DNA of 33,977 nt from a virus (Duplodnaviria; Heunggongvirae; Uroviricota; Caudoviricetes). Positions 1 to 33,977 of this stretch are shown here, piece after piece. Location of the stretch: IMG/VR virus record IMGVR_UViG_2563366805_000007, one strand, 5' to 3'. Position 1 is the first letter of the stretch. Each line of letters starts with the position of its first letter. A program made the translations under genes and the position numbers. The notes below the pieces were generated by a model. That model made no database searches and was not told where the DNA came from. It was given only the letters and a program-made list of their open reading frames with translations.

Positions 1-948
1 ATGATTATGCAAAAAATATTACGTATCGACAGTAACGATAATCTCATTGTCGCGTTGAAAGACCTGCACGCTGGAGAATCGTTCTCGTGGGATGACGACA
101 ACATAACGTTAGTAACTGATGTTAAGGCTAAACATAAGTTTGCGACGCAAGATATTCCTCTGGATGGCATTGTTTCGATGTACGGTACGCCAGTTGGCAA
201 GGCCACGCGTCCCATCGTTAAGGGAGAAGCGATTACCGTTGATAATATTCGCCACTATGCAGCTCCTGTCACACTGGAGGATGTTGAACCCTACCACTGG
301 CAGGCACCGGATGTCTCTGAATGGAGCACCCGCACTTTTAAAGGTTATGTCCGTGACGATGGCAGAGTGGGTACTGCCAGTTACTGGTTAGTCTTTCCAT
401 TGGTATTTTGCGAGAACCGTAATGTCAGTACGTTAACCAATGCTTTGAATGATGCTTTGGGTTATACCAATAACTCACTGAAAAAGTTTGCTCTTAATCT
501 GACGTCCGGTAGCGATGAACTGATCGAAACCGCGAGAATGTTTCCGCATATTGAAGGTGTTCGCTGTATTACGGTCACCAGTGGTTGTGGTGGTGCAACT
601 TCAGACTGTGAAACTATGTGCGATGTATTAGCTGCTTATGCTGACCATCCGAATGTAATCGGTATGACGGTATTCAGTTTAGGATGTGAAAAAGCGCAGC
701 AGAAAATGTTTAAGGATGCGCTGGCGAGACGTAATCCTGAATTTGATAAACCTGCGCTCTACTTTCTCCAACAGGAGTGGGACAGCGAAGAGCGGATGAT
801 GCAGACCGCTTTACAGCAGACTTTCGAGGCAATGAAAGCGGTGAAGCCGACAGAAAGAGTAGAGGTCCCTCTTTCCTGTCTCAAAGTGGGTGCCGCGCGC
901 CAATCAAAACGCGACACATTGACAACTAACATTGGATCGCGTTTGTGA
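1..948 (+). CDS. UxaA/GarD-family (altronate/galactarate) dehydratase, N-terminal fragment disrupted by prophage insertion; host-derived part is 1..890, the frame then reads into the phage end to a stop at 946-948
   Basis: Translation shows the N-terminal SAF-like region and the GLGCE motif of the UxaA/GarD family. The protein ends ...PLSCLKVG, exactly where the C-terminal fragment at 33261 resumes with MKCGGSDG (compare E. coli UxaA ...LKFGLECGGSDG, from memory). Confidence 0.7.
   Translation: MIMQKILRIDSNDNLIVALKDLHAGESFSWDDDNITLVTDVKAKHKFATQDIPLDGIVSMYGTPVGKATRPIVKGEAITVDNIRHYAAPVTLEDVEPYHWQAPDVSEWSTRTFKGYVRDDGRVGTASYWLVFPLVFCENRNVSTLTNALNDALGYTNNSLKKFALNLTSGSDELIETARMFPHIEGVRCITVTSGCGGATSDCETMCDVLAAYADHPNVIGMTVFSLGCEKAQQKMFKDALARRNPEFDKPALYFLQQEWDSEERMMQTALQQTFEAMKAVKPTERVEVPLSCLKVGAARQSKRDTLTTNIGSRL
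886..890. repeat. Left copy of the 5-bp target-site duplication GTGGG
   Basis: GTGGG occurs immediately outside both prophage termini (886-890 and 33261-33265); removing the prophage plus one copy restores an in-frame dehydratase ORF. It fits the Mu target consensus N-Y-(G/C)-R-N. Confidence 0.6.
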
Positions 949-955
949 TCATGAT

Positions 956-1510
956 TTATATGTCAGATGCTGGGAATCGTTTGTACAGAGTTGAGATTCC
1001 GACGTCATAAATTAGGGCCACCCTCTGACGAGTTTCGCCAGCCGCTAACAATCTTCCAGCCTGCGCCCACTGTTCAGGTGTTAACTTAGGTCTTCGACCT
1101 CCCACGCGCCCCTCAGCTCGCGCAGCAGCCAGACCTGCACGTGTACGTTCAACAATCAGTTCACGTTCCATCTCGGCCAATGCCCCCATAACATGAAAAA
1201 AGAAGCGCCCCATTGGCGATGAAGTATCTATGCTGTCAGTCAGACTTTTAAAGTTGATACCTCGCTCGCGTAGTTCTTCCACCAGTCCAACCAGATGACG
1301 CATGCTGCGTCCGAGGCGATCAAGCTTCCAGACCACGAGGGTGTCACCTTCAGATAGCGTTCTGAGTACCCGTTTTAGTCCGGGTCTGTCTGAGGTTCTG
1401 CCGCTTATCTTGTCTTCAAAAATCAGCTCACATCCTGCACATTCCAGCGCATTACGCTGTAATGCCGTGTTCTGGTCATTTGTTGATACACGTACATAGC
1501 CAATAAGCAT
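956..1510 (-). CDS. gin: Gin-type serine DNA invertase (G-segment invertase)
   Basis: Translation MLIGYVRVSTNDQN...GDTLVVWKLDRLGRSM...MGRFFFHVMGALAEMERELI is near-identical in motif content to Mu Gin / Hin / Cin resolvase-invertases. The ORF-track start at 1546 is probably an upstream extension; the conserved start is MLIGYVRV at 1510. Confidence 0.9.
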   Translation of the reverse strand: MLIGYVRVSTNDQNTALQRNALECAGCELIFEDKISGRTSDRPGLKRVLRTLSEGDTLVVWKLDRLGRSMRHLVGLVEELRERGINFKSLTDSIDTSSPMGRFFFHVMGALAEMERELIVERTRAGLAAARAEGRVGGRRPKLTPEQWAQAGRLLAAGETRQRVALIYDVGISTLYKRFPASDI

Positions 1511-1527
1511 GGTTAAACTCACTTTAA

Positions 1528-1938
1528 ATGGCGGGAATAATGCCATTTGAGCGACTAACGATCATTATCGAAAACGTTGGTTTGGGAGAAGCAGCTAAAA
1601 GGAATGTAGGTACAGGGGCGAATCAGATACCTGATATGAGCCTGTTCGCGTCAAGTAATACCGCAACGGCTGCTGCGCAAAAATTTCCGTCTGGATTAAT
1701 TTTACAGTGCGGTCAGTTGAATGGCTCCCCGAATGTATCTTCAATATACGGGATGAGGTTCCCGATGACATTCTCAAGAGTCCTTGCTGTCACAGTTACA
1801 TTGAACGTTACTGGCGCGTCAGGGCAGCCGACTGTATCGGCGACAAATGTCCATAACACTGGATTTGATATTACAGTATCGCCCGGTTCAGGATACGGTT
1901 CATCTGCTGATGCGTATTACATTGCAATGGGATATTAA
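1528..1938 (+). CDS. Alternative tail-fibre variable segment (S-prime variable part), promoterless until G inversion fuses it to the constant 5' part of S
   Basis: The ORF runs through the gix site at 1565-1590 and encodes ...VGLGEAAKR..., sharing the GLGE crossover codons with S (...NLGLGEGS...). After inversion between the gix centres the frame is continuous with S codons upstream of 3448. Confidence 0.6.
1565..1590. repeat. gix-like recombination site (right boundary of the invertible G segment in phage orientation)
   Basis: TTATCGAAAACGTTGGTTTGGGAGAA is a 12-2-12 imperfect palindrome resembling Gin/Hin/Cin crossover sites. It is an inverted repeat of 3434-3459, conserved over AAAC-S-TTGGTTT-R-GGAGAAG. 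Confidence 0.75.
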
Positions 1939-7471: not shown

Positions 7472-8799
7472 TCTGTTACCTCGACAGGTTTACCCGGAAG
7501 AACGAACGCCGGGTCTTTCAATCGGTTCCTTGACGCGATGGCGTCACGGTTCTCGGTATTACCGGTTTCACGCCATGCAATCAGAGATACCGGGGACGTT
7601 GTGGTCAGAATGACCGTTCGTGTCTGTGGTAGCTGAGCGCTTCTGACCCGCACGTCATTGACGACGGCAAAGCGCAGCTCGCGCAGGGCATGCCACAAAT
7701 TCCGCTGACCGTTTTCTACGGCATACACAGCTTGTTCATTCAGTTGCTCAGCCAGCGTGTCACCCGCACTTATGGCTTCCTCACTACTTCTGAACTCGGT
7801 GCTGGCAACGGTCTCTGCCTGTCCAATTAGGCTGGCAACGACAATCAGCTGACGAAAATGAGTGATGTTGGCCTGCATGGCATCGGTCAGTTCAGGGACA
7901 ACGTCCGGAAGGCTGCTGGCAAAACCATACTTTCCGTCAGTCACTGAACCTGGTGTGACTGACATGTATTTGGGCAACTGGTGAAGTGCAGCGGCTGTCG
8001 CCCGGTCACTTGTATTTGTTGGCGAAACCGGCGACGACCACGGCGAAGATGAAGAACCGGAAAACTGATCTCCCTGCCACCGGTTGCGGATCTGATCATA
8101 AACCCGCATTGACCAAAGAGGTTCGGTCACGGTGTCGCGTACACCGCTGACAAGGTTCAGAACATCATTGATAAATCCGGCTGGTTTCGCGACGGCCAGC
8201 TCAATCAACCCACGAAAACGCCCTAAACGGTCAGTCCATTCAGTAATCGCGGAGGGCAGCGTCAGCACACCCACTACCAGATTTTCCATGTCGTCCATCC
8301 ACGTATCGGCCATCTCACCAAGACCATCAAGCAGGGCAAAGACATCGCCATTCGCCAGCGCAGCTTTGACCTTATCCGCTGCGCTGAGTACCGTCAGGCT
8401 GGTATTTTCTGCCGGCGCAGGAAACAGGCGCTCGCCCGCCTCAGATACCTCAAAAGAGATGTAGGCAATGCCGCCTTCCTCAGTGCTCAGACGGTGAGTC
8501 ACCTTACCAATCTGAACCTTCTGAATGCCGAACCACGGATGGATAAGTTCACCGGGTCCAGGTGTGTTCAGAGCCCGGAGAAGTGCCTCCAGTTGGCTCT
8601 GGTAGTTCTTTCCAATCAGCTTGCCGTTGATTTGCTGTTGGGTCAGAACGGCACCGTTATCCTCGGTCCAGCCCACTTCTTTTTTGGGGTAGGCGCGGGG
8701 AATTGCCCGACGGCCGCTGGTGCCTTCGTTATCGACCAGATAAAACGAGACGCCCCGGAACGAAGCATCGCGCAGGTCTTCCCATCGGGTAGCAGCCAT
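7468..8799 (-). CDS. DNA circularisation protein N-like tail protein
   Basis: 443-aa protein directly downstream of the tape measure, with stop/start overlap, as Mu N. Confidence 0.75.
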   Translation of the reverse strand: MAATRWEDLRDASFRGVSFYLVDNEGTSGRRAIPRAYPKKEVGWTEDNGAVLTQQQINGKLIGKNYQSQLEALLRALNTPGPGELIHPWFGIQKVQIGKVTHRLSTEEGGIAYISFEVSEAGERLFPAPAENTSLTVLSAADKVKAALANGDVFALLDGLGEMADTWMDDMENLVVGVLTLPSAITEWTDRLGRFRGLIELAVAKPAGFINDVLNLVSGVRDTVTEPLWSMRVYDQIRNRWQGDQFSGSSSSPWSSPVSPTNTSDRATAAALHQLPKYMSVTPGSVTDGKYGFASSLPDVVPELTDAMQANITHFRQLIVVASLIGQAETVASTEFRSSEEAISAGDTLAEQLNEQAVYAVENGQRNLWHALRELRFAVVNDVRVRSAQLPQTRTVILTTTSPVSLIAWRETGNTENRDAIASRNRLKDPAFVLPGKPVEVTD

Positions 8800-10718
8800 C
8801 AGCCTTGCTCCACGCTGGACACGCCAGCAGATGCACTAAGTTTGATATCCGGCTGGTTCATGGTGACGCTTTTAACACGGCCACCGCCACCCTCAAGGAT
8901 CACGCGGATTTCACCCTGCATTTTCTGTAGGGTTGTGGGTAATGCAGGTGGCTGAACAGGCTTATCAAACGCGTTTTTGTTTTCAATTGCGGCGTTGGTG
9001 CCACGCAGAAAATCAACGATGACACCAAACAAAGAATGATCACTCGTTTCAGGGCGCGGTCTGTCTGCCGGGGGATTTTCAGCCGCAGGAATGAACGGCG
9101 TCGCCGGGGTCAGTGATGCCCACGGGCGCGGGTCAATAACCGGTTTCTCATTTGCTTTGCGTTTGGCACGATCCTTTGCCCACTGAACCATGCCAGCTTT
9201 GTCATCACTGCTCAGTGATGGTTCTTCATAAAGGTATGGAATAGTTGACGCCAGCATGGTCAGGCCGACCATTTCCTGTGGGCTGCCAGGACGTCTGGGA
9301 CTATTAGGTTTACGGGGATTTTTTCCATCAGGTCCATCGGGGATTAAATCACCCGGCCCCCCCATCCCACCTTTGCCCATGTTCACGACATAAACGGGCA
9401 TAACACCGGAGCCAAAAACATCGGAGACGCCTTTAGGGATGCCTTTTCCGCCTTTTTCTGGCTGGAGAAACTCCCATGCACCTTTACCAATTTTAAATGC
9501 TTTACGTGCCGCAATGACTCCAGCGGTCGCAATGGCTATTTTCTTGCCGACTTCCAGCCAGTTCTGAACCGTCTTTTGATCAACTGAATTGATAGCATCA
9601 GCCAGGTCCTGTACCGGGCCGGCAAGATTGCTGTTAGAAAACTTCTTCCAGGTAACATTCAGGCTGGTCAGTGCCGAAGTAAAATCTTTCGCCGCATATT
9701 CAGCATCTTTCATGATGCCTGTGCCGTCCCCGACAACTGACTGGTATCGCTTGAGGTTTTCTGCTCCTTTACCAGAGGTGGCACTGCTGATAAGTAAAAT
9801 ACTGTCCTGGTTAAAACCGGCTTCCAGGAGTCTTTTATTCTGTTTCTCAGAACCTTTACTCCCTGATTTTTTAGCGATTTCCTCCAGGAGTGTTGGAAGT
9901 GATCGCATCTTCCCATCTTTGTCATAAACGTTGACACCATTCTTTCGAAGGGTGCTAACAACCTTTGGCAACTGCAGATCACGAATAAGGTTTTCAGTCG
10001 CCGTGGCTGCTGTATCACGGTTGCCTGTGGCATCAATGGCTGATTCCAGTACAACGCCTACGTCTTTGACTCCCTTAACGCCACTCCCGCCAGCAGCGGA
10101 GTACATAGAGAAGGCTCTGACGCCTTTTTCTGCAATGTCTTTCAGCTCAAATGCGCCTTCTTTTCCCAGAAGGTTTAACGTGTCCATAGCTGCAAGCGTC
10201 TGCTTTTCAGTCTGAAGACCAAATTTGGGGAACTGAGAAAACAGTCCGCCAATCGAATCCCCCTGAGAGCCTGATGCAGCGATAGAGGCGGCTATCATGC
10301 CCTTATTCTGAATACCGAAATCCAGATCACCGGTCGTTTTGTTGACATTCTCCAGTGCGGCCAACACCTCCGAGTCATCCACCCGGAATTTGATGGCGGT
10401 ATCCTGAATACCATCAAAGATATTGCGCATCTCATCACGAGTTTTACCGGCGGCAATACCCAGCCCGGTTAATTGTCGATCTGTTTTAGCAAATTCTCTC
10501 AGCGCTGCGCCGCTGGCAAGGCCGGCAATCATCGTTGTATAGCGATTACTGAGCATGTCCAGACCACGTCCGGCAGATTCAGACGCGGCCTTAACAACAG
10601 ACATTGCTTTCTGGTTACGGCTGGCAAACTCGCTCATGTTAGCGCCGTACTGGCGGGCTTTAGCCGTCAGGTTCCCGGCAAGGTTAATCAGAATTTCAGT
10701 GCTTAGGCGGTTTGTCAT
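8799..10718 (-). CDS. Tail tape-measure protein
   Basis: 639-aa ORF, Ala/Gly-rich and largely low-complexity, located after the tail-chaperone pair as in all contractile and siphovirus tail modules. Confidence 0.8.
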   Translation of the reverse strand: MTNRLSTEILINLAGNLTAKARQYGANMSEFASRNQKAMSVVKAASESAGRGLDMLSNRYTTMIAGLASGAALREFAKTDRQLTGLGIAAGKTRDEMRNIFDGIQDTAIKFRVDDSEVLAALENVNKTTGDLDFGIQNKGMIAASIAASGSQGDSIGGLFSQFPKFGLQTEKQTLAAMDTLNLLGKEGAFELKDIAEKGVRAFSMYSAAGGSGVKGVKDVGVVLESAIDATGNRDTAATATENLIRDLQLPKVVSTLRKNGVNVYDKDGKMRSLPTLLEEIAKKSGSKGSEKQNKRLLEAGFNQDSILLISSATSGKGAENLKRYQSVVGDGTGIMKDAEYAAKDFTSALTSLNVTWKKFSNSNLAGPVQDLADAINSVDQKTVQNWLEVGKKIAIATAGVIAARKAFKIGKGAWEFLQPEKGGKGIPKGVSDVFGSGVMPVYVVNMGKGGMGGPGDLIPDGPDGKNPRKPNSPRRPGSPQEMVGLTMLASTIPYLYEEPSLSSDDKAGMVQWAKDRAKRKANEKPVIDPRPWASLTPATPFIPAAENPPADRPRPETSDHSLFGVIVDFLRGTNAAIENKNAFDKPVQPPALPTTLQKMQGEIRVILEGGGGRVKSVTMNQPDIKLSASAGVSSVEQG

Positions 10719-10881
10719 ATTGCTTCCTCAGTTGCCTGACCTGAATAAGCAACTGCCGTAGGGGCAGTTGCTCAAGCCGGTTAACATCGAAACGCTGAGA
10801 GAGGTTAATCAGCAGTAGATTGAGCGCCGCTGCCATCGGCATCATGTCGCCCCCGTTCGGCAGTCTCCCCCAGCATGTCAT
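10696..10881 (-). CDS. Putative frameshift-extension ORF of the tail assembly chaperone
   Basis: In the +1 frame relative to 10805-11200 and overlapping its 3' end. The frame is open from just upstream of a CGGGGGCGA tract (minus-strand sense, about 10847-10856) to a stop overlapping the tape-measure start. Confidence 0.45.
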   Translation of the reverse strand: MTCWGRLPNGGDMMPMAAALNLLLINLSQRFDVNRLEQLPLRQLLIQVRQLRKQYDKPPKH

Positions 10882-11200
10882 CCATCGCCTGACCCTTTTC
10901 TGTCAGCAACTTCAAATCTTCCGGATGCAGGGCATAAATTTGATTCATGTCCAGCGGGCCGGGGATTTCTCCAATCTTCTTAATCTGCCGGCGCATCATC
11001 TCCAGACCCATCATGACCTCAGAGCAGTAGGCAACCGCCTTGCCGTTATCCCCAATCACAACGCGCTCGGAGGCCAGTTGTGATTCGATAACATCCCGTG
11101 ATGTCAGCTCGCGTAGCGTCACATCCTTGTGAAGCATTTCGTCGGTAGTACCTTTGCCGGTGCGCAGACCGTGTACCAGAGGGAATGTCAGTTCAGCCAT
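10805..11200 (-). CDS. Tail assembly chaperone (Mu gp41 / P2 E-like)
   Basis: Small acidic protein between the tube and tape-measure genes, with an overlapping out-of-frame downstream ORF, the hallmark chaperone arrangement. Confidence 0.65.
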   Translation of the reverse strand: MAELTFPLVHGLRTGKGTTDEMLHKDVTLRELTSRDVIESQLASERVVIGDNGKAVAYCSEVMMGLEMMRRQIKKIGEIPGPLDMNQIYALHPEDLKLLTEKGQAMDDMLGETAERGRHDADGSGAQSTAD

Positions 11201-11203
11201 GTC

Positions 11204-11560
11204 TTACACCTTCACACACTTGACGCCGATGAAGTTAGCCGAAACTGTCCCCGCGTCTTCGTCCAGTTCAGCCGGGTTATCGGTGGCCGCGCCGGTCATC
11301 ATGTAGTTGAGGCCGTTGTCACCGTAGAACATGACGGTCACGTCCTCCCAGTTACTGATTTCAATCACATCAACGTCACGATCCGCTGCAATGGTCAGTT
11401 TGATGGAGGGGGCAGCCATCTTGCGGGAATTCCCCCAGACCTTACCGCCGCCCATGTGTTGCTGGCGGGCATAGCCACCCGGATTCAGGGTGGACTTGCC
11501 TTCAGTTTTGATTTCACGGCCATTAATACGAATCGCCGCCATACCCAGAATATTTGCCAT
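11204..11560 (-). CDS. Tail tube protein (Mu M-like)
   Basis: 118-aa protein immediately downstream of the sheath gene. Confidence 0.75.
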   Translation of the reverse strand: MANILGMAAIRINGREIKTEGKSTLNPGGYARQQHMGGGKVWGNSRKMAAPSIKLTIAADRDVDVIEISNWEDVTVMFYGDNGLNYMMTGAATDNPAELDEDAGTVSANFIGVKCVKV

Positions 11561-11569
11561 GCTGGTTCC

Positions 11570-13051
11570 TTAAAGTTTGAACTGGATGAGACCGGCCAGA
11601 ACGCGCAACTGATTCACCAGATTCGGGTGGCAGATAAAGTTCAGACGGTTTGGGTCTTTGCTGTCGATGGTGACATCAAGCGTGTCTTTATAATCTTCGA
11701 AATCCTCCACCAGACCTGCCGGGATAAGCTCAGTCAGCGCAATATCCAGTAACTCAGCCCGACAGATTTTTGGCGTCATGACTGGCTGACCGGCATCGAG
11801 CAAATCAAGCACGTCATCACCCGCCAGCTTGTGGCGTGGGTAGCGACTGGTGAAACGGTTTTTGATGACATAACGGATACGGCCAAGCGTTGCTGGCGAC
11901 TGCACATCGAGGTATGAAATGTCCGTATCGCCATAGCGGTTTACGCGGTACATGGTGATTTCGCGCTCAATACAGACGTTATCTCCGGCATCAACAAAGT
12001 GCGTGGCGATACCGTCATGCAACAGCAGGTTACGCTCTGGCATATCCCAGCGGATACCGCGAGCGGGGGGCTTGATGCCTGTCAGGATCAGAGTCTGGAG
12101 AGGACGGGCCGGATCTATGGCAAGCTGGTATGCCGCCGTTGCACCGTAGCTGGCGGCCCACATCCATGACGGTTCAGGTGCGATGTTGGTGCCGATACAG
12201 GAAATCAGCCAGTCATTGCGGGTATGTCCGAATGTTCCGCTCTGGGCATGTGTTCCGCGATAAGCAGACCACAACAGCGCCTCCATCATCTTGAGCGGCC
12301 CCCAGCGTTCCAGCAGTTCGTCACGAATGGTGTTCAGGCTCTGGGCATCGAGGTACGGGAAGATGATATCCGTGTACCAGTCATCTCCCAGCGCCGCGAC
12401 AACAGACTGAATATCCGGCGTCCCCGTACCACCCGAAAATGCGGTCAGTGTTGCACTGATGCCGGCAGGTGTTTTTTCTCCGGCGTAATAGTTCAGGCGC
12501 ACATCACTGTCATTTCCCGTGACGCCTTTCCACTTCACGGTCAGCACTACCGTTGCAGCAGCTTCAGCTTTTGCTGTGGCAGTAACCTGAGTGGCAGGCT
12601 TTGCGGTAATTGCAGCGATGATATTGCCGGCAATGGTTGCCGCTTCATCACCGATGCTGACCCCGACCTGGACAGATACGCCATTGATCATCAGTGCCAG
12701 CGTACCAGCCTGAGTGGCGGTGCCGAGCATCGTGACTGTGGCACTCGCCGCGGCACCCTGGGCAATATCTTCCAGTCCCATCGCATACATCTCGGTGTAA
12801 CTGTTGGCCATACGGACCATCTTTGCCATTTCACCCAGCATGGAGCCACGGCCATAGAGTTCATCAGCCATGCTGTCGCCAGTAATACGGTTCAGCGTCA
12901 ACGGTAAAGCAGTCGCGCTGGCGAGCTGCTGACCCACAACCAGAATTTTTCGGGACTGTGCCGGCGCGGCACTCATCGCCATAGAGTTATCGATATCGAT
13001 CCAGACCAGCGGGACACGAATATCATCAGGAATATTACCGATGGACATCAT
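11570..13051 (-). CDS. Contractile tail sheath protein (Mu L-like)
   Basis: 493-aa protein followed by tube and chaperone genes; size and context of a myovirus sheath. Confidence 0.85.
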   Translation of the reverse strand: MMSIGNIPDDIRVPLVWIDIDNSMAMSAAPAQSRKILVVGQQLASATALPLTLNRITGDSMADELYGRGSMLGEMAKMVRMANSYTEMYAMGLEDIAQGAAASATVTMLGTATQAGTLALMINGVSVQVGVSIGDEAATIAGNIIAAITAKPATQVTATAKAEAAATVVLTVKWKGVTGNDSDVRLNYYAGEKTPAGISATLTAFSGGTGTPDIQSVVAALGDDWYTDIIFPYLDAQSLNTIRDELLERWGPLKMMEALLWSAYRGTHAQSGTFGHTRNDWLISCIGTNIAPEPSWMWAASYGATAAYQLAIDPARPLQTLILTGIKPPARGIRWDMPERNLLLHDGIATHFVDAGDNVCIEREITMYRVNRYGDTDISYLDVQSPATLGRIRYVIKNRFTSRYPRHKLAGDDVLDLLDAGQPVMTPKICRAELLDIALTELIPAGLVEDFEDYKDTLDVTIDSKDPNRLNFICHPNLVNQLRVLAGLIQFKL

Positions 13052-29016: not shown

Positions 29017-29955
29017 TCACTCCTCTCCGATACCGCTGTGGCCCAGCTCCAGCATGGCGGACTGGATGTGCGCCGTGCCAATGGTCTCACCCTTGCCCTG
29101 AGCGTAAATTCCGGCCAGCGGCAGGATGTGCGACAGAGAACGCAGCGCCCCCGGACGTCGGGCGATAGCCTTCAGCAGCTTGCGTTCGTCAGCGCCGGTG
29201 ACCTGCCAGGCATCGCAGAAGCTGTCCACGTCACCAGCGGAAACGGTATTGATGACGTACTTCTTGGACACGCGGGAGAACAGGCGGGCAAAATCCACGC
29301 TGCGCTGGCCGCCGGTAAGACGGTCATAGACCTTGTGGTTACCCACCAGTGCCAGCCCCACGCCACATTCCTCCTGGAGAATACGCAGCTCTTCCACCGC
29401 ATCCAGACTCAGCCAGTCGGCTTCATCCACCACTATCAGGCCGCGCGTGTCCGGCAGACGCTGGCGCAGCAGGCGAGAGAGTGCACCACGGCGGTATGGC
29501 GCATCGCTGATGCCCATTTTCAGGGCCAGTTCATACAGGGTCTCCAGCTCATTGCTGCGGGATTTGCTGGCGGTGATGTGCCAGACGTTATTACCGCCTG
29601 CGGCATACTGCCGGATAGCCTTTGTCTTACCCACGCCCGGATTGCCGTAAACCAGCACAATCGTCCCGGCCAGCTGCGCCCACGTCAGGGTGGCGAGGAT
29701 TTTCTGAGAGGTCGGTGTCTCAACGAAATCAGGGGCCACCGGAAGCGTGGTTTTCGCGGCGTTGTGACTTTCAAGCCAGGTATTCAGGCTGGCAGCTACG
29801 GTGTCATTGTCACCTTTGTATTTCCCGTTCAGGAACTGTGAAACCGTCGCGGTTGATGTACCGGTCTCACGCGCCAGCGCTGCACCGGAAATCGTCTTGC
29901 TGTCGATAAGTTCACGAATGGCACTGCGCACAACATCATGGTTAATTTGCGTCAT
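29017..29955 (-). CDS. B: MuB-like ATP-dependent target-DNA activator (AAA+ ATPase)
   Basis: 312 aa; N-terminal HTH, Walker A GNPGVGKT and Walker B LIVVDEAD; immediately downstream of the transposase. Confidence 0.85.
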   Translation of the reverse strand: MTQINHDVVRSAIRELIDSKTISGAALARETGTSTATVSQFLNGKYKGDNDTVAASLNTWLESHNAAKTTLPVAPDFVETPTSQKILATLTWAQLAGTIVLVYGNPGVGKTKAIRQYAAGGNNVWHITASKSRSNELETLYELALKMGISDAPYRRGALSRLLRQRLPDTRGLIVVDEADWLSLDAVEELRILQEECGVGLALVGNHKVYDRLTGGQRSVDFARLFSRVSKKYVINTVSAGDVDSFCDAWQVTGADERKLLKAIARRPGALRSLSHILPLAGIYAQGKGETIGTAHIQSAMLELGHSGIGEE

Positions 29956-30050: not shown

Positions 30051-32033
30051 TTATTTCCGTGCCTGTTTAGCCTTATTAACAAACTGCTGGAAAATAACGT
30101 CGTTTTCGCTCTGCGTTTCCTGTATGTCCTCCACGCGCTTGACGGTGTTGCCCAGGGTAAATACTCGCTCCACCACATGCCGCTCCGGCAGTTCTGCATG
30201 CTCAGTCTTCGGCAGCAGGTCATTCACCTCAATCGCCGTCATACGGTTCAGAGCCTTAGTCGCTTTCTTCGTACTCTTGATCATCTCGCGGCGTGCACGG
30301 TTGTGTTCACGTCCAGCCTCGGTATCGCCAAAGGCCACGGCGGCACGACACTCAGCCATGCAAAGGAAACGGCCGTCGAGGTCATAACAGGCGACTTCTC
30401 CGTGCAGGTTCCTTGGATCAAACCGGACGGTGATTTTGCGCGAGCGGTGGCTGACGAGCTGTTCACTCCAGTAAGTATTCTTACGGCCAAATAACGAGCC
30501 CCCGCACTCCATCGTAAATTCGCCTGTAGTCTTCACGCGTACAGCTTCCGCAGGCAGCATCAGTTGACGAATTTGCTCTTCGGTCATACGGGTGATGACT
30601 GACTGGCTGTAGCTGCGCTCAAACGCCTGGTCGAAGGACAGTTCCCCCCGGCACATCTCGGTCTCGCGCCCGGCCTTCGCGTTGAACATGGCGACACCTT
30701 CGCTGATGGTTTCCAGGAATGTATCCACATCCACCGCCAGGCTGCCGTAGTTCTCTGGCTTGGAGCTGACGTTTTCACCGGCAAATGCTCCAGCCAGCGC
30801 AGGATGTTTGTCGATATATTCGCCCAGACCGCCCACGCCGAAGGCACGTTCAACGGGCTTTGCCTGTCCCCAGCCCTTACCGCCAATCACCCCCGTCCAG
30901 TGCAGCTTCATTCCCAGCAGAGGGATGATCCCCATCGGGTCATCAGGTTTGACTTTGAAGCGGTAACGGTTAGGAACGCCACCGGACAGCCATTTATTTG
31001 CAGCAGCGCGGGTGTTATCGATGGTCACATGTTTAGGCTTACCGTAAGCGCGGATGGTATCCATCAGGGATAAACGGATGCTGTCACTGTTCTCCGACAA
31101 ATCAGCACGCCAGCCAATAATTTTGCGACTGTGGACATCCTGCCAGAACCACGTTTTAGGACGGATGATGTCGCCGTTAAACCAACGGACAAACACGTTG
31201 TGCTGGTAACCGTCGCCATTGATCCACTCCATCGCATGAAGATATGCCACGGTGCGCTGCTGCGACGGATACATCTGCGCCAGCGCGTTCTCGCCCTCAC
31301 GGGTGGCAACGACGATACGCGGATCAACTTCACGTTCTAGCTTGCGGCGCAGAGTGCGCTCAGCGGGAATAATCCAGCCATGAGCATCTGCCGCCTTTTC
31401 AAGGCGCTCATAGCTTTTGGAGAAGAACGGCGCTTCGTTTCGCAGATAATCGCCCAGGAAGAACTGCCAGGCATCTTCAGAGATATCGGCAGTCCGGCCA
31501 GTCTGACGTTTTTCACGCACACGGCGGTCAAGCAGTACCGGACCCCAGAGGTCAGGACTATGGTCTTTGACTTTGTAGTAAAGATTGCGCAGCGTACCTT
31601 CACTGATTTGCAGCTGTTTTGCTGCCAGCGTGATCGCCTTACGATTGCCGATGCCGGAAGCCATCAGTTCCGCCACCAGCGCGGCAGCTTTAGTCCGGCG
31701 TTCTGCATGCAGACGCTGCTCGCCGGTAGCTTTCTCCCATGCAGACCACAGTCGCTGGCGTTCCAGATCGTCAGCCGCCACGCGCTCAGGCTCCTGTGGC
31801 AATGTAATCAGCCCGGATGATGTTTCAATCAGGCCACGTGCGGCCAGCAGTTCAGCGCGGACTTCAGGTGGCAACACCGATATGTGGTATTCGAATGCTT
31901 TGGTGCCAGCACGTTTACGGCGTAGTTCACTACGTCCACTGACAAAAGACTCCAAATGTTTTCTGACGTTCTTTTCTGCATTAGGAAAAGAACAAATTCC
32001 TACGCATTCTTTTGCGGTAACCCAGAAATCCAT
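30051..32033 (-). CDS. A: MuA-like DDE transposase
   Basis: 660 aa; N-terminus MDFWVTAKECVGI..., internal ...WQFFLGDYLR..., ...HAMEWINGDGYQHNVFVRWFNGDIIRPKTWFWQDV..., ...GKGWGQAKPVERAFGVGGL... are co-linear with Mu A (from memory). Confidence 0.9.
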   Translation of the reverse strand: MDFWVTAKECVGICSFPNAEKNVRKHLESFVSGRSELRRKRAGTKAFEYHISVLPPEVRAELLAARGLIETSSGLITLPQEPERVAADDLERQRLWSAWEKATGEQRLHAERRTKAAALVAELMASGIGNRKAITLAAKQLQISEGTLRNLYYKVKDHSPDLWGPVLLDRRVREKRQTGRTADISEDAWQFFLGDYLRNEAPFFSKSYERLEKAADAHGWIIPAERTLRRKLEREVDPRIVVATREGENALAQMYPSQQRTVAYLHAMEWINGDGYQHNVFVRWFNGDIIRPKTWFWQDVHSRKIIGWRADLSENSDSIRLSLMDTIRAYGKPKHVTIDNTRAAANKWLSGGVPNRYRFKVKPDDPMGIIPLLGMKLHWTGVIGGKGWGQAKPVERAFGVGGLGEYIDKHPALAGAFAGENVSSKPENYGSLAVDVDTFLETISEGVAMFNAKAGRETEMCRGELSFDQAFERSYSQSVITRMTEEQIRQLMLPAEAVRVKTTGEFTMECGGSLFGRKNTYWSEQLVSHRSRKITVRFDPRNLHGEVACYDLDGRFLCMAECRAAVAFGDTEAGREHNRARREMIKSTKKATKALNRMTAIEVNDLLPKTEHAELPERHVVERVFTLGNTVKRVEDIQETQSENDVIFQQFVNKAKQARK

Positions 32034-32269: not shown

Positions 32270-32500
32270 TCTGCGATCCTTAAATGTTTACACGTTCAGG
32301 TCAGCAATATCGCTAACCACTACGAGTAAAGATTAGAACACAAAAGAACGAAAGTAAATACTTTTGCGTACTTTTATGGTTGATGAGGTTAACCATGATA
32401 TTTTATTTAAAATCAATTCGTTACTTGATTTTCCGTGGTTAATCACAAAAAAGTACCAGATGTATTTTTCAATAACACAGAAAAGTACGGTGAATGATAT
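32270..32500. promoter_or_regulatory. Divergent c / ner control region (operator, early promoter, probable transposition enhancer)
   Basis: AT-rich; GTACTTTT/AAAAGTAC motifs at 32359-32365, 32368-32375, 32449-32456 and 32481-32488, plus palindrome AAAGTAAATACTTT at 32351-32364; lies between divergently transcribed ner and c. Confidence 0.5.
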
Positions 32501-32963
32501 GGTTGATTTTAGTGAATGGGTGTCAGTTCAGGATTGTATTGGTCTACCAGGTTTCCCCAGTGGAGCGCCGAATGTCCGGCGGAAACTGGAACAACTTGTG
32601 AGTAATAATCCTAAGTTGAAACGTAAGAAGGCTAAATCGAAAGCATATGAATATCATGTATCGGTCTTGCCAGAAGAAACAAAGAAATTCTTGGGGGTAG
32701 AAGAGCGCTCAGTTATACCTGACTCAGCCTTATCGTCACCAAGCTCAACAGCTCGGGACCTATGGATAATGCTTTTCGACAACTTAACAGAGCGTCAAAA
32801 ACAGTATGTTATTAAGGTTTTCATGCAAGGTGGGCTGAACGCTTTAATGCCGATGGTAGCTGATTTGGAAGCCAGTGCAGATAGAGAGATTTTTGAACAA
32901 CGTGATCCCAATGAACAGATTCAAGCCGCGCCGAAGCTGAGCACGCGAAATAAAGCTGGCTGA
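32460..32963 (+). CDS. c: Mu-type repressor c (start uncertain; open frame from 32364)
   Basis: ...EWVSVQDCIGLPGFPSGAPNVRRKLEQL...KAYEYHVSVLPEE... is homologous to the N-terminal DNA-binding domain of the transposase in this window (FWVTAKECVGICSFP...KAFEYHISVLPPE), the known relationship between Mu repressor and MuA; transcribed toward the phage left end. Confidence 0.7.
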   Translation: MYFSITQKSTVNDMVDFSEWVSVQDCIGLPGFPSGAPNVRRKLEQLVSNNPKLKRKKAKSKAYEYHVSVLPEETKKFLGVEERSVIPDSALSSPSSTARDLWIMLFDNLTERQKQYVIKVFMQGGLNALMPMVADLEASADREIFEQRDPNEQIQAAPKLSTRNKAG

Positions 32964-33260: not shown

Positions 33261-33265
33261 GTGGG
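33261..33265. repeat. Right copy of the 5-bp target-site duplication GTGGG
   Basis: Identical pentamer to 886-890, immediately outside the CA-3' prophage terminus at 33260. Confidence 0.6.
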
Positions 33266-33977
33266 GATGAAGTGTGGTGGTTCCGATGGTTTTTCTGGTA
33301 TCTCCGGCAACCCTGCAATGGGGCTGGTTTCTGACTGGTTGACAACGCTTGGTGGCGCTTCCGGGTTAGCAGAATTTCCAGAATTATGTGGGGCAGAAGG
33401 TGATATGGTTAAGCGTTGTATTAATCTTGAGGATAAAAAAAAGTTCCTCAATCTAATGCAAGGCTACGAAAAGACAGCGAACTTTTTCGATACCACCATT
33501 GCGGATAACCCAAGTTTTGGCAACATCGCGGATGGGTTGATTACTGACGCAATAAAATCTACCGGAGCAGCGAAAAAAGGCGGGCGAGCGCCAATTGTGA
33601 GTGTATGCGATTACGCTGAACCTATGCCCGATAGTGGATTATCGTTGGTGTGTACTCCGGGCAATGACGTGGACGCGGTAACCGGATTGGTAGCAGCAGG
33701 ATGTAATGTGGTTATCTTCTCGACGGGTCTTGGTACGCCCACCGGTAACCCGATTGTTCCGGTGTTAAAAATATCCACCAACAGCACGATTGCCAGACGA
33801 TTGTCTGACATGATTGATTTCGACTGTGGCCCAGTGATTGACGGCACTCCGCTGGAAGATGTGAGTAGAGAATTATTTGAAAAAGTTATTGAAACTGCCA
33901 GTAAGGACTACGTCGTGAAGGCAGACAAACTCGAACAGTTTGATTTTATGTTGTGGAAGCGGTCGTTAGACTTGTAG
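33261..33977 (+). CDS. UxaA/GarD-family dehydratase, C-terminal fragment (remainder of the gene split by the prophage)
   Basis: Contains the family motif MKCGGSDGFSGISGNPAMG (compare UxaA ...LECGGSDGLSGITANPMLG); in frame with the N-terminal fragment once the prophage and one TSD copy are removed; ends at the window edge. Confidence 0.7.
   Translation: MGMKCGGSDGFSGISGNPAMGLVSDWLTTLGGASGLAEFPELCGAEGDMVKRCINLEDKKKFLNLMQGYEKTANFFDTTIADNPSFGNIADGLITDAIKSTGAAKKGGRAPIVSVCDYAEPMPDSGLSLVCTPGNDVDAVTGLVAAGCNVVIFSTGLGTPTGNPIVPVLKISTNSTIARRLSDMIDFDCGPVIDGTPLEDVSRELFEKVIETASKDYVVKADKLEQFDFMLWKRSLDL

What the first reader, a model, noticed from the sequence alone, without database searches (positions are those of the whole stretch)
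10696..11200. Probable programmed frameshift in the tail assembly chaperone at a G5 tract (+1 or -2 direction)
The chaperone gene (10805-11200) overlaps a 61-codon ORF (10696-10881) that is in the +1 frame, and the shifted frame is open only downstream of a stop just before a CGGGGGCGA stretch (about 10847-10856). The arrangement is the conserved G/GT-type chaperone frameshift, but the required frame change is +1 (equivalently -2) rather than the usual -1. I recall a -2 shift being reported for Mu itself but cannot verify that here.
Basis: partly seen in the sequence, partly recalled or inferred. Interest (0 to 1): 0.5.

Follow-up and report, generated by a model that had tools for sequence, protein, structure and literature searches.

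The report
Mu-type minus-two tail chaperone frameshift
The tail-assembly chaperone gene of this Mu-like prophage carries, in the same reading register, the exact slippery sequence (GG GGG CGA) on which phage Mu ribosomes are known to slip back two bases, so this is an unannotated copy of a known recoding signal, not a new mechanism.

Summary
On the minus strand a 131-codon gene (11200-10805, Pfam Gp41_Mu, E 2e-35) lies between the tail tube and tape-measure genes. It overlaps a +1/-2-frame open stretch (10902-10699). That stretch can only be entered in the 95 nt that hold C GG GGG CGA (10855-10847).

Phage Mu has the identical 12-mer GAACGGGGGCGA in the identical register. GenBank marks that site as a verified -2 frameshift, and the literature describes tandem -2 slippage on GG GGG CGA.

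I collected 173 gp41-type loci from Escherichia, Klebsiella, Serratia, Vibrio, Shewanella, Pasteurella and others. In 171 the octamer is present in register. It is invariant in 45 representatives, whereas the flanks vary. Sequence variation switches from frame-0 to -2-frame codon periodicity exactly at the site.

The Arg codon before GGG is always NGG. A Shine-Dalgarno-like GGAG sits 10 nt upstream, in 43/45 relatives though not in Mu. That spacing is typical of backward shifts. No convincing downstream RNA structure was found.

Most likely a minority of ribosomes slip -2 and make a 168-aa chaperone-T fusion, the lambda G/GT analogue.

This is a new member of a known kind. RefSeq does not annotate the fusion. 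Interest is low to moderate.

The parts
10805..11200 (-). Frame-0 tail assembly chaperone gene (Mu gp41 homologue, 131 aa, the lambda gpG analogue)
   Evidence: ORF list. Pfam Gp41_Mu PF23746 at 2.2e-35 and Phage_TAC_7 at 2.9e-06. phrog_508 tail assembly chaperone at 1.6e-36. 42% identity to Mu gp41 by tblastn.
10847..10854 (-). Slippery octamer GG GGG CGA: GGG (10852-10850) is the P-site codon and CGA (10849-10847) the A-site codon. It is preceded by C10855, so frame 0 reads CGG GGG CGA.
   Evidence: Only copy in the window. Identical sequence and register to the verified Mu site (PMC3458567). In register in 171/173 related loci and invariant in 45 divergent representatives.
10696..10848 (-). 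-2-frame extension ('T' segment): 50 codons, DMMPMAAALNLLLINLSQRFDVNRLEQLPLRQLLIQVRQLRKQYDKPPKH, plus stop TGA at 10698-10696. It ends 23 nt inside the tape-measure gene.
   Evidence: Translation. phrog_38797 at 2.1e-20. Length of 47-54 aa and an LP(L/I)RxL motif shared across lineages. Codon periodicity of variation follows this frame from the site onward.
10699..10902 (-). Whole open stretch of the +1/-2 frame (68 codons). The part 10902-10808 overlaps frame 0 and defines where a shift can be productive.
   Evidence: Stop map of the three frames.
10865..10871 (-). Shine-Dalgarno-like GGGGGAG (GGAG at 10868-10865), 10 nt 5' of the octamer. Inferred to be a 5' stimulator of backward slippage.
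   Evidence: Predicted duplex with the 16S 3' tail is -8.4 kcal/mol. The equivalent element is present in 43/45 representatives: mean -6.7 kcal/mol for 8-nt windows ending -10..-7 from the octamer's first G (-5.05 at -11), against a background of -1.1±1.7. Spacing is 7-12 nt in 41/45. There is an excess of G at the synonymous position -14. The spacing rule of 9-14 nt for -1 and 3 nt for +1 is from PMC5009743. No function has been shown.
10826..10840 (-). Small hairpin GCCG-AUGGCAG-CGGC, 6 nt 3' of CGA. Recorded, but not supported as a stimulator.
   Evidence: MFE -8.2 kcal/mol and z = +0.42 for the 47 nt after the site. Invariant in 19 enterobacterial relatives but with 0 compensatory changes. 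It lies in dual-coding sequence. It is absent at that place in the Vibrio group and in Mu.
8799..10718 (-). Tape measure protein gene (639 aa), immediately downstream
   Evidence: PhageMin_Tail PF10145 at 1e-13. phrog_973 tape measure at 2.4e-133.
11204..11560 (-). Tail tube gene (118 aa), immediately upstream
   Evidence: Pfam Tail_tube PF10618 at 1.4e-38.
11570..13051 (-). Tail sheath gene (493 aa)
   Evidence: Phage_sheath_1 at 4e-28. phrog_165 at 4.4e-195.

Best explanation
This is the Mu-type programmed -2 ribosomal frameshift of the tail assembly chaperone.

Most ribosomes read 11200-10805 in frame 0 and make the 131-aa gp41-like chaperone. A minority slip when GGG (10852-10850) is in the P site and the poorly decoded CGA (10849-10847) is in the A site. 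The mRNA slips so that the tRNAs re-pair two bases upstream: tRNA-Gly on GGG (10854-10852) and tRNA-Arg(ICG) on GGC (10851-10849). Reading then continues with GAC at 10848 in the -2 frame to the TGA at 10698-10696.

The product is a 168-aa fusion, ...GETAERGR|DMMPMAAAL...KPPKH. It has the chaperone domain at its N-terminus and a 50-aa 'T' segment at its C-terminus.

By analogy with lambda gpG/gpGT, the short form coats the tape measure protein. The rare fusion links the tape measure protein to the tail tube subunit to start tube polymerisation, and neither protein stays in the virion.

A GGAG 10 nt upstream probably pairs with the 16S rRNA tail and promotes the backward slip.

Shown here: the anatomy, homology to Mu gp41, identity of the site and register with Mu, family-wide conservation, and the switch of selective constraint to the -2 frame at the site. 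Inferred: that the fusion is made in this prophage, the direction (-2 rather than +1), tandem versus P-site-only slippage, the role of GGAG, and the roles of the two proteins.
For: (1) Synteny is sheath, tube, chaperone, tape measure.

(2) The gene is a Mu gp41 homologue (PF23746, 2.2e-35).

(3) Mu and the window share GAACGGGGGCGA in the same register, offset mod 3 = 1 in both.

(4) Mu_56 is annotated 'verified -2 translational frameshift'. PMC3458567 reports tandem -2 slippage on GG GGG CGA. Efficiency is about 2.2% in vivo (PMC3498833) and 14% in a purified system (bioRxiv 10.1101/2025.10.02.679949).

(5) 171/173 loci found with seeds that exclude the motif keep the octamer in register. It is invariant in 45 representatives that are under 85% identical over the surrounding 178 nt, and RGR is the only invariant stretch in a variable C-terminal region.

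(6) The +1/-2 frame extends 61-238 nt (median 121) past the frame-0 stop in the 173 loci. In 7 of the 45 representatives it opens only 6-9 nt before the octamer. In the Vibrio/Shewanella group the frame-0 stop lies 8-11 nt after the first G of the octamer, which pins the shift to the octamer.

(7) Upstream of the site variation peaks at frame-0 third positions (1.34 bits). From the site on it peaks at -2-frame third positions (0.81, then 1.17) and is lowest at that frame's second positions.

(8) Direction. The codon before GGG is CGG in 43 and AGG in 2 of 45, never CGU, CGC or CGA, although CGG and AGG are 13.9% and 2.7% of the prophage's Arg codons. The SD-like element lies 7-12 nt upstream, the range reported for backward shifts, not the 3 nt reported for +1.

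(9) The -1 frame is closed by TGA 10844-10842, and within 6 codons or fewer in 34/45 relatives.
Against: There is no experimental datum for this prophage, and its efficiency is unknown. Sequence alone cannot strictly separate -2 from +1, because both reach the same frame and the products differ by one residue.

No convincing 3' stimulatory structure was found and there was no Rfam match. The SD-like element is absent from Mu, the only relative tested by experiment, so its role is untested.

The related loci are phylogenetically linked, so counts such as 171/173 overstate the number of independent observations.
Confidence: 0.85

Rival explanations
1. The site and fusion are the same, but the shift is +1. 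P-site tRNA-Gly moves from GGG to GGC while the A site waits for the slowly decoded CGA. The product is a 167-aa fusion, ...AERG|DMMPM....
For: +1 and -2 reach the same frame. CGA is a minority codon, 6.5% of Arg, which fits a 'hungry A-site' +1 model. A contig with G4 instead of G5 (a one-base loss, equivalent to +1) gives an intact 164-aa fusion.
Against: The identical octamer in Mu was shown by experiment to shift -2. A +1 model does not need the two G's before the GGG codon, yet they are invariant, NGG in 45/45. GGG to GGC re-pairing mismatches at the third position, whereas -2 re-pairs GGG to GGG. The SD-like element is 10 nt upstream, not the 3 nt reported for +1 stimulation.
Confidence: 0.08
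2. There is no recoding. The downstream ORF is a separate small gene that starts at its own start codon, either ATG 10881 or ATG 10845/10842 with the G5 run acting as its ribosome-binding site.
For: Start codons exist in the window. 31/45 relatives have a start codon within 10 codons after the site. Annotators of D108 and others called the ORF a separate gene (gene 41.5; PHROGs 38797, 12783 and 10716).
Against: Only 15/45 relatives have an ATG in that frame upstream of the site, and 14/45 have no start codon at all within 10 codons after it. A ribosome-binding site would need neither an invariant octamer that includes CGA nor a fixed register with frame 0. The -2-frame constraint starts at the site itself, not at a later ATG. 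In Mu the fusion was verified.
Confidence: 0.04
3. The shift happens at the other G5 run, CUG GGG GAG (10873-10865), by +1 slippage of tRNA-Gly from GGG to GGG.
For: This run lies inside the 95-nt productive window, and +1 re-pairing would be perfect.
Against: The run is not conserved. Relatives have GAGGAG, CAGGAG, AAGGAG or ACGGAG at this position, which keeps only the SD-like GGAG. In many relatives the +1/-2 frame is still closed at this position: it opens 6-21 nt before the octamer in 19/45. The following frame-0 codon, GAG, is not a slow codon.
Confidence: 0.02
4. RNA polymerase slippage on the G5 run adds or removes a base in a fraction of transcripts, and normal translation then makes the fusion.
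For: A homopolymer lies at the junction. Transcriptional slippage is a known route to such fusions (PMC5009743).
Against: This argument rests on established knowledge and was not tested here. Productive bacterial transcriptional slippage uses runs of about 8 or more A or T, and five G's are too short. It would also not explain why CGA and the reading register are invariant. The Mu event is described as ribosomal.
Confidence: 0.01

Closest known systems
Phage Mu gp41 / gp41-T (Mu_41 / Mu_56) programmed -2 frameshift (Xu, Hendrix & Duda 2004, Mol Cell 16:11; PMID 15469818)
   Same: Homologous chaperone (PF23746). Same gene position between tube and tape measure. Identical GAA CGG GGG CGA in the same register. 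A -2-frame extension of 50 aa in both that ends at the tape-measure start.
   Different: Only 42% amino-acid identity in the chaperone and about 15% in the T segment. The frame-0 tail after the site is 13 aa here and 6 aa in Mu. The window has an SD-like GGAG 10 nt upstream, which Mu lacks. There is no experimental verification here.
Lambda gpG/gpGT -1 frameshift (Levin, Hendrix & Casjens 1993)
   Same: Same logic and presumed function: an abundant short chaperone and a rare C-terminally extended form made from a gene just upstream of the tape measure gene (PMC5009743).
   Different: Lambda shifts -1 on a heptanucleotide. Here the -1 frame is closed after 2-3 codons (TGA 10844-10842). No sequence homology was detected by the Pfam models that matched.
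P2 gpE/gpE+E' (Pfam Phage_TAC_7, 'E, or 41 or 14')
   Same: Weak family-level similarity (PF10109, 2.9e-06). It is the chaperone pair of a contractile-tail phage.
   Different: From my own knowledge, P2 uses a -1 shift on a U-rich heptamer. There is no such site here, and the productive frame is +1/-2.
E. coli dnaX -1 frameshift signal (5' SD-like element, slippery site, 3' hairpin)
   Same: An internal SD-like element 10 nt 5' of the slippery sequence. The 9-14 nt range for backward shifts is from PMC5009743. The exact dnaX N10 spacing is from my own knowledge.
   Different: dnaX shifts -1 on A AAA AAG and has a strong 3' stem-loop. No supported 3' structure was found here.

Membership tests
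Mu-type -2 tail-chaperone frameshift | The gene lies between the tail tube (major tail) gene and the tape measure gene | tested here: met
   Sheath 13051-11570, tube 11560-11204, chaperone 11200-10805, tape measure 10718-8799.
Mu-type -2 tail-chaperone frameshift | The chaperone is homologous to Mu gp41 | tested here: met
   PF23746 Gp41_Mu at 2.2e-35, 121 bits against a cut-off of 27. tblastn to Mu gives 42% identity at 1e-13.
Mu-type -2 tail-chaperone frameshift | Slippery octamer GG GGG CGA with GGG and CGA as frame-0 codons | tested here: met
   10854-10847, same offset mod 3 as in Mu. Motif as given in PMC3458567.
Mu-type -2 tail-chaperone frameshift | An open +1/-2 frame overlaps the 3' end of the gene and runs to the tape measure start, while the -1 frame is closed | tested here: met
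   The +1/-2 frame is open 10902-10699 and the -1 frame stops at 10844-10842. The same arrangement holds in 8 phage loci and in the 173-locus set.
   171/173 loci. The octamer is invariant in 45 representatives. Codon periodicity switches at the site.
Mu-type -2 tail-chaperone frameshift | A fusion protein is actually produced, and the shift is -2 (an extra residue relative to +1) | not testable with these tools
   This needs protein data. The indirect arguments for -2 are the invariant NGG codon before GGG and the SD-like spacing.
Lambda G/GT-type -1 frameshift | An X XXY YYZ heptamer with a productive -1 frame | tested here: not met
   The -1 frame terminates 2-3 codons after the G-tract, and only the +1/-2 frame reaches the tape measure gene. 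It works like G/GT but is not a -1 member.
SD-stimulated backward frameshift (dnaX / IS-element type) | A sequence complementary to the 16S 3' tail lies 9-14 nt 5' of the shift site | tested here: met
   GGAG at 10868-10865, N10, then the octamer. The duplex is -8.4 kcal/mol and the element is conserved in 43/45. The spacing rule is from PMC5009743.
SD-stimulated backward frameshift (dnaX / IS-element type) | The element measurably raises frameshift efficiency | not testable with these tools
   Only the excess of G at synonymous sites suggests selection at the nucleotide level: 14/20 against a background of 0.32, and 21/24 against 0.45. Phylogenetic non-independence was not corrected.
SD-stimulated backward frameshift (dnaX / IS-element type) | A 3' stimulatory stem-loop or pseudoknot | tested here: inconclusive
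   There is only a 4-5 bp hairpin. z = +0.42 for 47 nt and -1.78 for 97 nt. There is no covariation and no conservation outside the enterobacterial group.

The most novel reading that the evidence does not exclude
In most Mu-like phages, including this one, the -2 signal has two parts. A Shine-Dalgarno-like element about 10 nt upstream of GG GGG CGA acts as a 5' stimulator of the two-base backward slip. Mu, the only member tested by experiment, lacks this element. If so, Mu's roughly 2% efficiency would be atypically low for the family, and this family would be a natural system in which rRNA-mRNA pairing drives -2 rather than -1 slippage.
Probability: 0.4. Interest if true: 0.4.

Novelty: new member of a known kind. 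Interest (0 to 1): 0.25.

Why it matters
The practical value is annotation. The identical prophage in E. coli ECONIH4 is annotated by RefSeq with only the 131-aa protein and no fusion. In other phages the -2-frame segment is scattered over three PHROG families of 'unknown function'. A rule could recover the missing fusion across Mu-like prophages: a Gp41_Mu homologue plus an in-register GGGGGCGA near its 3' end.

For biology, natural -2 frameshifts are rare. This set shows that the Mu octamer is kept unchanged across Enterobacterales, Vibrionaceae, Shewanella, Alteromonadaceae and Pasteurellaceae phages. It also points to a possible 5' SD-like stimulator that could be tested with simple reporters.

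None of this changes the accepted picture of tail chaperone recoding.

Tried and rejected
- **3' stimulatory RNA structure.** The 47 nt and 97 nt after the site fold no better than shuffles (z = +0.42 and -1.78). The Mu region gives z = -0.19. RNAalifold on 19 enterobacterial relatives finds only an invariant 4-5 bp hairpin with no compensatory change. I rejected it as evidence.
- **Rfam.** No match at E ≤ 1 in 10500-11400.
- **Solved structures by sequence.** Only a chance hit at E = 0.2.
- **Nucleotide search in phage records.** Only one distant record, Klebsiella phage Kp4866-3 at 70.7%, so the comparison had to go through protein-seeded loci.
- **The diverse alignment A1.** It was too divergent for the search for related loci. 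I used the closer alignment A2 and four single-protein scans instead.
- **Single-ORF 'fusions' P0003 and P0034 as natural hard-wired fusions.** P0003 is a G4 variant on one short Logan contig. P0034 changes frame much earlier. Neither can be told from an assembly error, so I did not use them as evidence.
- **Xu et al. 2004.** The paper is not held in the library, so details of the Mu experiment come from secondary sources and the GenBank note.
- **Inverted repeats near the Gin-like recombinase.** A quick scan for G-segment-type repeats found nothing convincing.
Full report
**What is in the sequence**

All relevant genes are on the minus strand, in the order typical of contractile-tail phages:
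- sheath, 13051-11570
- tube, 11560-11204
- a 131-codon gene, 11200-10805
- a 639-codon tape measure gene, 10718-8799

The 131-aa product matches Pfam Gp41_Mu (PF23746, E 2.2e-35) and, weakly, Phage_TAC_7. It also matches PHROG 508 'tail assembly chaperone'.

That frame is open from 10902 to 10699, between TGA 10905-10903 and TGA 10698-10696. The third (-1) frame is closed by TGA 10844-10842. The sequence CGGGGGCGA is at 10855-10847 and reads CGG GGG CGA in frame 0.

The one imprecision is that the upstream stop of the shifted frame is 48 nt, not immediately, before the G-tract.

**Is it more than chance?**

GGGGGCGA occurs once in the window on both strands, against 1.16 expected, so its mere presence means little. 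Its position does mean something. It lies inside the only 95 nt where a shift would be productive, and in one particular register. The expectation for that is about 5e-4 (my arithmetic).

CGG, GGG and CGA are all minority codons in this prophage (13.9%, 14.1% and 6.5% of their families). An in-frame CGG-GGG-CGA is expected 0.003 times in its 7,367 codons.

**Identity with the Mu signal**

Mu has GAACGGGGGCGA 26 nt before its frame-0 stop, and the window has the same 12-mer. In both, the octamer starts at offset 1 mod 3 from the start codon.

Four papers bear on this:
- PMC5009743 lists Mu among the few -2 cases.
- PMC3498833 gives an efficiency of about 2.2%.
- A 2025 preprint measured 14% in a purified system.

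The predicted products are equally alike. Mu gives ...TQERGR|EWLRCRND... (50 aa in the -2 frame). The window gives ...TAERGR|DMMPMAAAL... (50 aa in the -2 frame, 168 aa in all).

**Comparative test**

I collected gp41-type loci using seeds that do not include the motif:
- eight phage records
- 17 loci from bacterial genomes: Serratia, Raoultella, Kluyvera, Klebsiella, Brenneria, Phytobacter, Pluralibacter and Trabulsiella
- 147 IMG/VR loci found with five different queries

Of 173 loci with a complete chaperone 3' end, 171 have GGGGGCGA in the xGG GGG CGA register within the last 200 nt. The two exceptions are truncated ORFs in a single Klebsiella assembly.

In 45 representatives that are under 85% identical over the surrounding 178 nt, the octamer is invariant. 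The base before it is C or A, and the flanks vary freely. In the protein alignment RGR is the only invariant stretch in an otherwise variable C-terminal region.

The +1/-2 frame always continues past the frame-0 stop, by 61-238 nt with a median of 121. In 7 representatives it opens only 6-9 nt before the octamer. In the Vibrio/Shewanella group the frame-0 stop lies 8-11 nt after the first G of the octamer. The shift therefore cannot be elsewhere.

Among 19 enterobacterial representatives, sequence variation is highest at frame-0 third positions upstream of the site (1.34 bits). From the site onward it is highest at the third positions of the -2 frame (0.81 in the overlap, 1.17 beyond) and lowest at that frame's second positions. 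Purifying selection thus changes frame exactly at the octamer.

The -2-frame peptides are 47-54 aa long in eleven of the twelve lineages sampled; the twelfth, L136 (32 aa), was left out of the alignment. They share an LP(L/I)RxL motif. The window's peptide hits phrog_38797 at 2e-20.

**Direction and mechanism**

Both +1 and -2 reach this frame. Three observations favour -2:
- The identical signal is experimentally -2 in Mu.
- The codon before GGG is CGG (43) or AGG (2) in all 45 representatives, never CGU, CGC or CGA. This is unexplained at the protein level. It is what -2 re-pairing of tRNA-Gly on GGG requires, and a +1 slip would not need it.
- A Shine-Dalgarno-like element lies upstream (next section) at the distance reported for backward shifts (9-14 nt), not at the 3 nt reported for +1 (PMC5009743).

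Pairing rules also agree. After a tandem -2 slip, tRNA-Arg(ICG) keeps two of three pairs on GGC. It would keep none on GCG (-1) and one on GAC (+1). This is my inference, and it agrees.

Whether slippage is tandem or P-site-only cannot be told from sequence. The products differ only in residue 118, R or G.

**A 5' element not seen in Mu**

I scanned 260 nt around the site in the 45 representatives for complementarity to the 16S 3' tail. Only two places stand out: the G-run itself, and windows ending 7-11 nt before it. Those windows average -6.7 kcal/mol for windows ending -10..-7 (-5.05 at -11), against a background of -1.1±1.7.

43/45 representatives have at most -4 kcal/mol there. Mu is one of the two exceptions (-1.7). 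In the window the element is GGAG at 10868-10865, exactly 10 nt from the octamer. The spacing is 7-12 nt in 41/45.

The element is built from different codon pairs in different lineages: GGG GAG, ACG GAG G, AAG GAG, CAG GTG. The synonymous position -14 is G in 14/20 four-fold codons (background 0.32, P = 5.5e-4) and in 21/24 A/G-ending codons (background 0.45, P = 2e-5). These probabilities ignore shared ancestry.

I read this as a probable 5' stimulator of the dnaX type. It is an inference.

**3' side**

I found no supported stimulatory structure. Fold z-scores are +0.42 (47 nt) and -1.78 (97 nt). A 4-5 bp hairpin 6 nt after CGA is invariant in enterobacterial relatives but shows no compensatory change, and it lies in dual-coding sequence. 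Nothing comparable exists in Mu or the Vibrio group. Rfam has no match.

**Rivals**

- Independent initiation of the downstream ORF is contradicted by the lack of conserved start codons (ATG upstream in 15/45; none near the site in 14/45), by the fixed register, and by the onset of -2-frame constraint at the site itself.
- The other G5 run (10871-10867) is not conserved as a run and is better explained as part of the SD-like element.
- Transcriptional slippage on five G's is unlikely on general grounds and would not require CGA or a register.
- A chance overlap is excluded by the conservation.

**Function**

By analogy with lambda gpG/gpGT (PMC5009743), the abundant short form should bind the tape measure protein, and the rare fusion should bridge it to the tail tube subunit. 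This is inferred from homology and gene position and was not tested.

**Context and novelty**

The window is a complete Mu-like transposable prophage. It carries MuA, MuB, a repressor-like protein, a Mu-type portal and a DNA circularisation protein. It spans 891-33260 between 5-bp repeats. It is 100% identical over the region studied to E. coli ECONIH4 and two other genomes, and is present in 5 of 5,426 complete E. coli genomes. RefSeq annotates no fusion product there.

The mechanism is known, so this is a new, unannotated member of a known kind. The family-wide invariance of the octamer and the SD-like element upstream are modest additions worth a reporter experiment.

Noticed in passing
window 886-890 and 33261-33265; prophage 891-33260: The window holds a whole Mu-like transposable prophage of 32,370 bp that starts with TG and ends with CA. 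It is flanked by a 5-bp direct repeat, GTGGG, as expected of Mu-type transposition. It is inserted into a UxaA/GarD-family dehydratase gene (N-terminal part 1-948, C-terminal part 33261-33977). MuA is at 30051-32033(-), MuB at 29017-29955(-), and a repressor-like protein at 32364-32963(+).
   Followed up: partly
window 10865-10871 (-); equivalent positions in L004-L173: A Shine-Dalgarno-like GGAG lies 10 nt upstream of the slippery octamer. It is conserved in 43/45 divergent relatives, with an excess of G at the synonymous position -14, but it is absent from phage Mu itself.
   Followed up: yes
L174 (Logan ERR10498928 contig) 229-723; protein P0003: One short contig has GGGG instead of GGGGG at the slip site, which fuses the two frames into a single 164-aa ORF. 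It could be a natural hard-wired fusion or a homopolymer assembly error, and the two cannot be told apart.
   Followed up: partly
L002 (E. coli ECONIH4 NZ_CP026399.1 589506-589901): RefSeq/PGAP annotates only the 131-aa 'phage tail assembly protein' for the identical prophage. The frameshift product is missing. Elsewhere the -2-frame segment is called a separate hypothetical gene (D108 gene 41.5) and is spread over PHROGs 38797, 12783 and 10716, all of 'unknown function'.
   Followed up: yes
L014, L016, L019, L023, L025, L026 (Klebsiella sp. WOUb02, several replicons): One Klebsiella assembly carries at least six gp41-type loci on its chromosome ends and on several 'plasmids'. Two have truncated chaperone ORFs and are the only loci that lack the octamer. 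This suggests either many Mu-like insertions or assembly problems.
   Followed up: no
window 956-1546 (-): A Gin-like serine recombinase (Resolvase + HTH_7, 7e-51) sits at the prophage end next to the tail-fibre genes, as in Mu. A quick scan found no convincing long inverted repeats that would bound an invertible segment.
   Followed up: partly
window 10842-10844 (-) and equivalent positions in relatives: The -1 frame is closed almost at once after the slip site: after one codon in 21/45 representatives and within six codons in 34/45. An accidental -1 slip on the same G-run would therefore give only a slightly shortened chaperone.
   Followed up: partly
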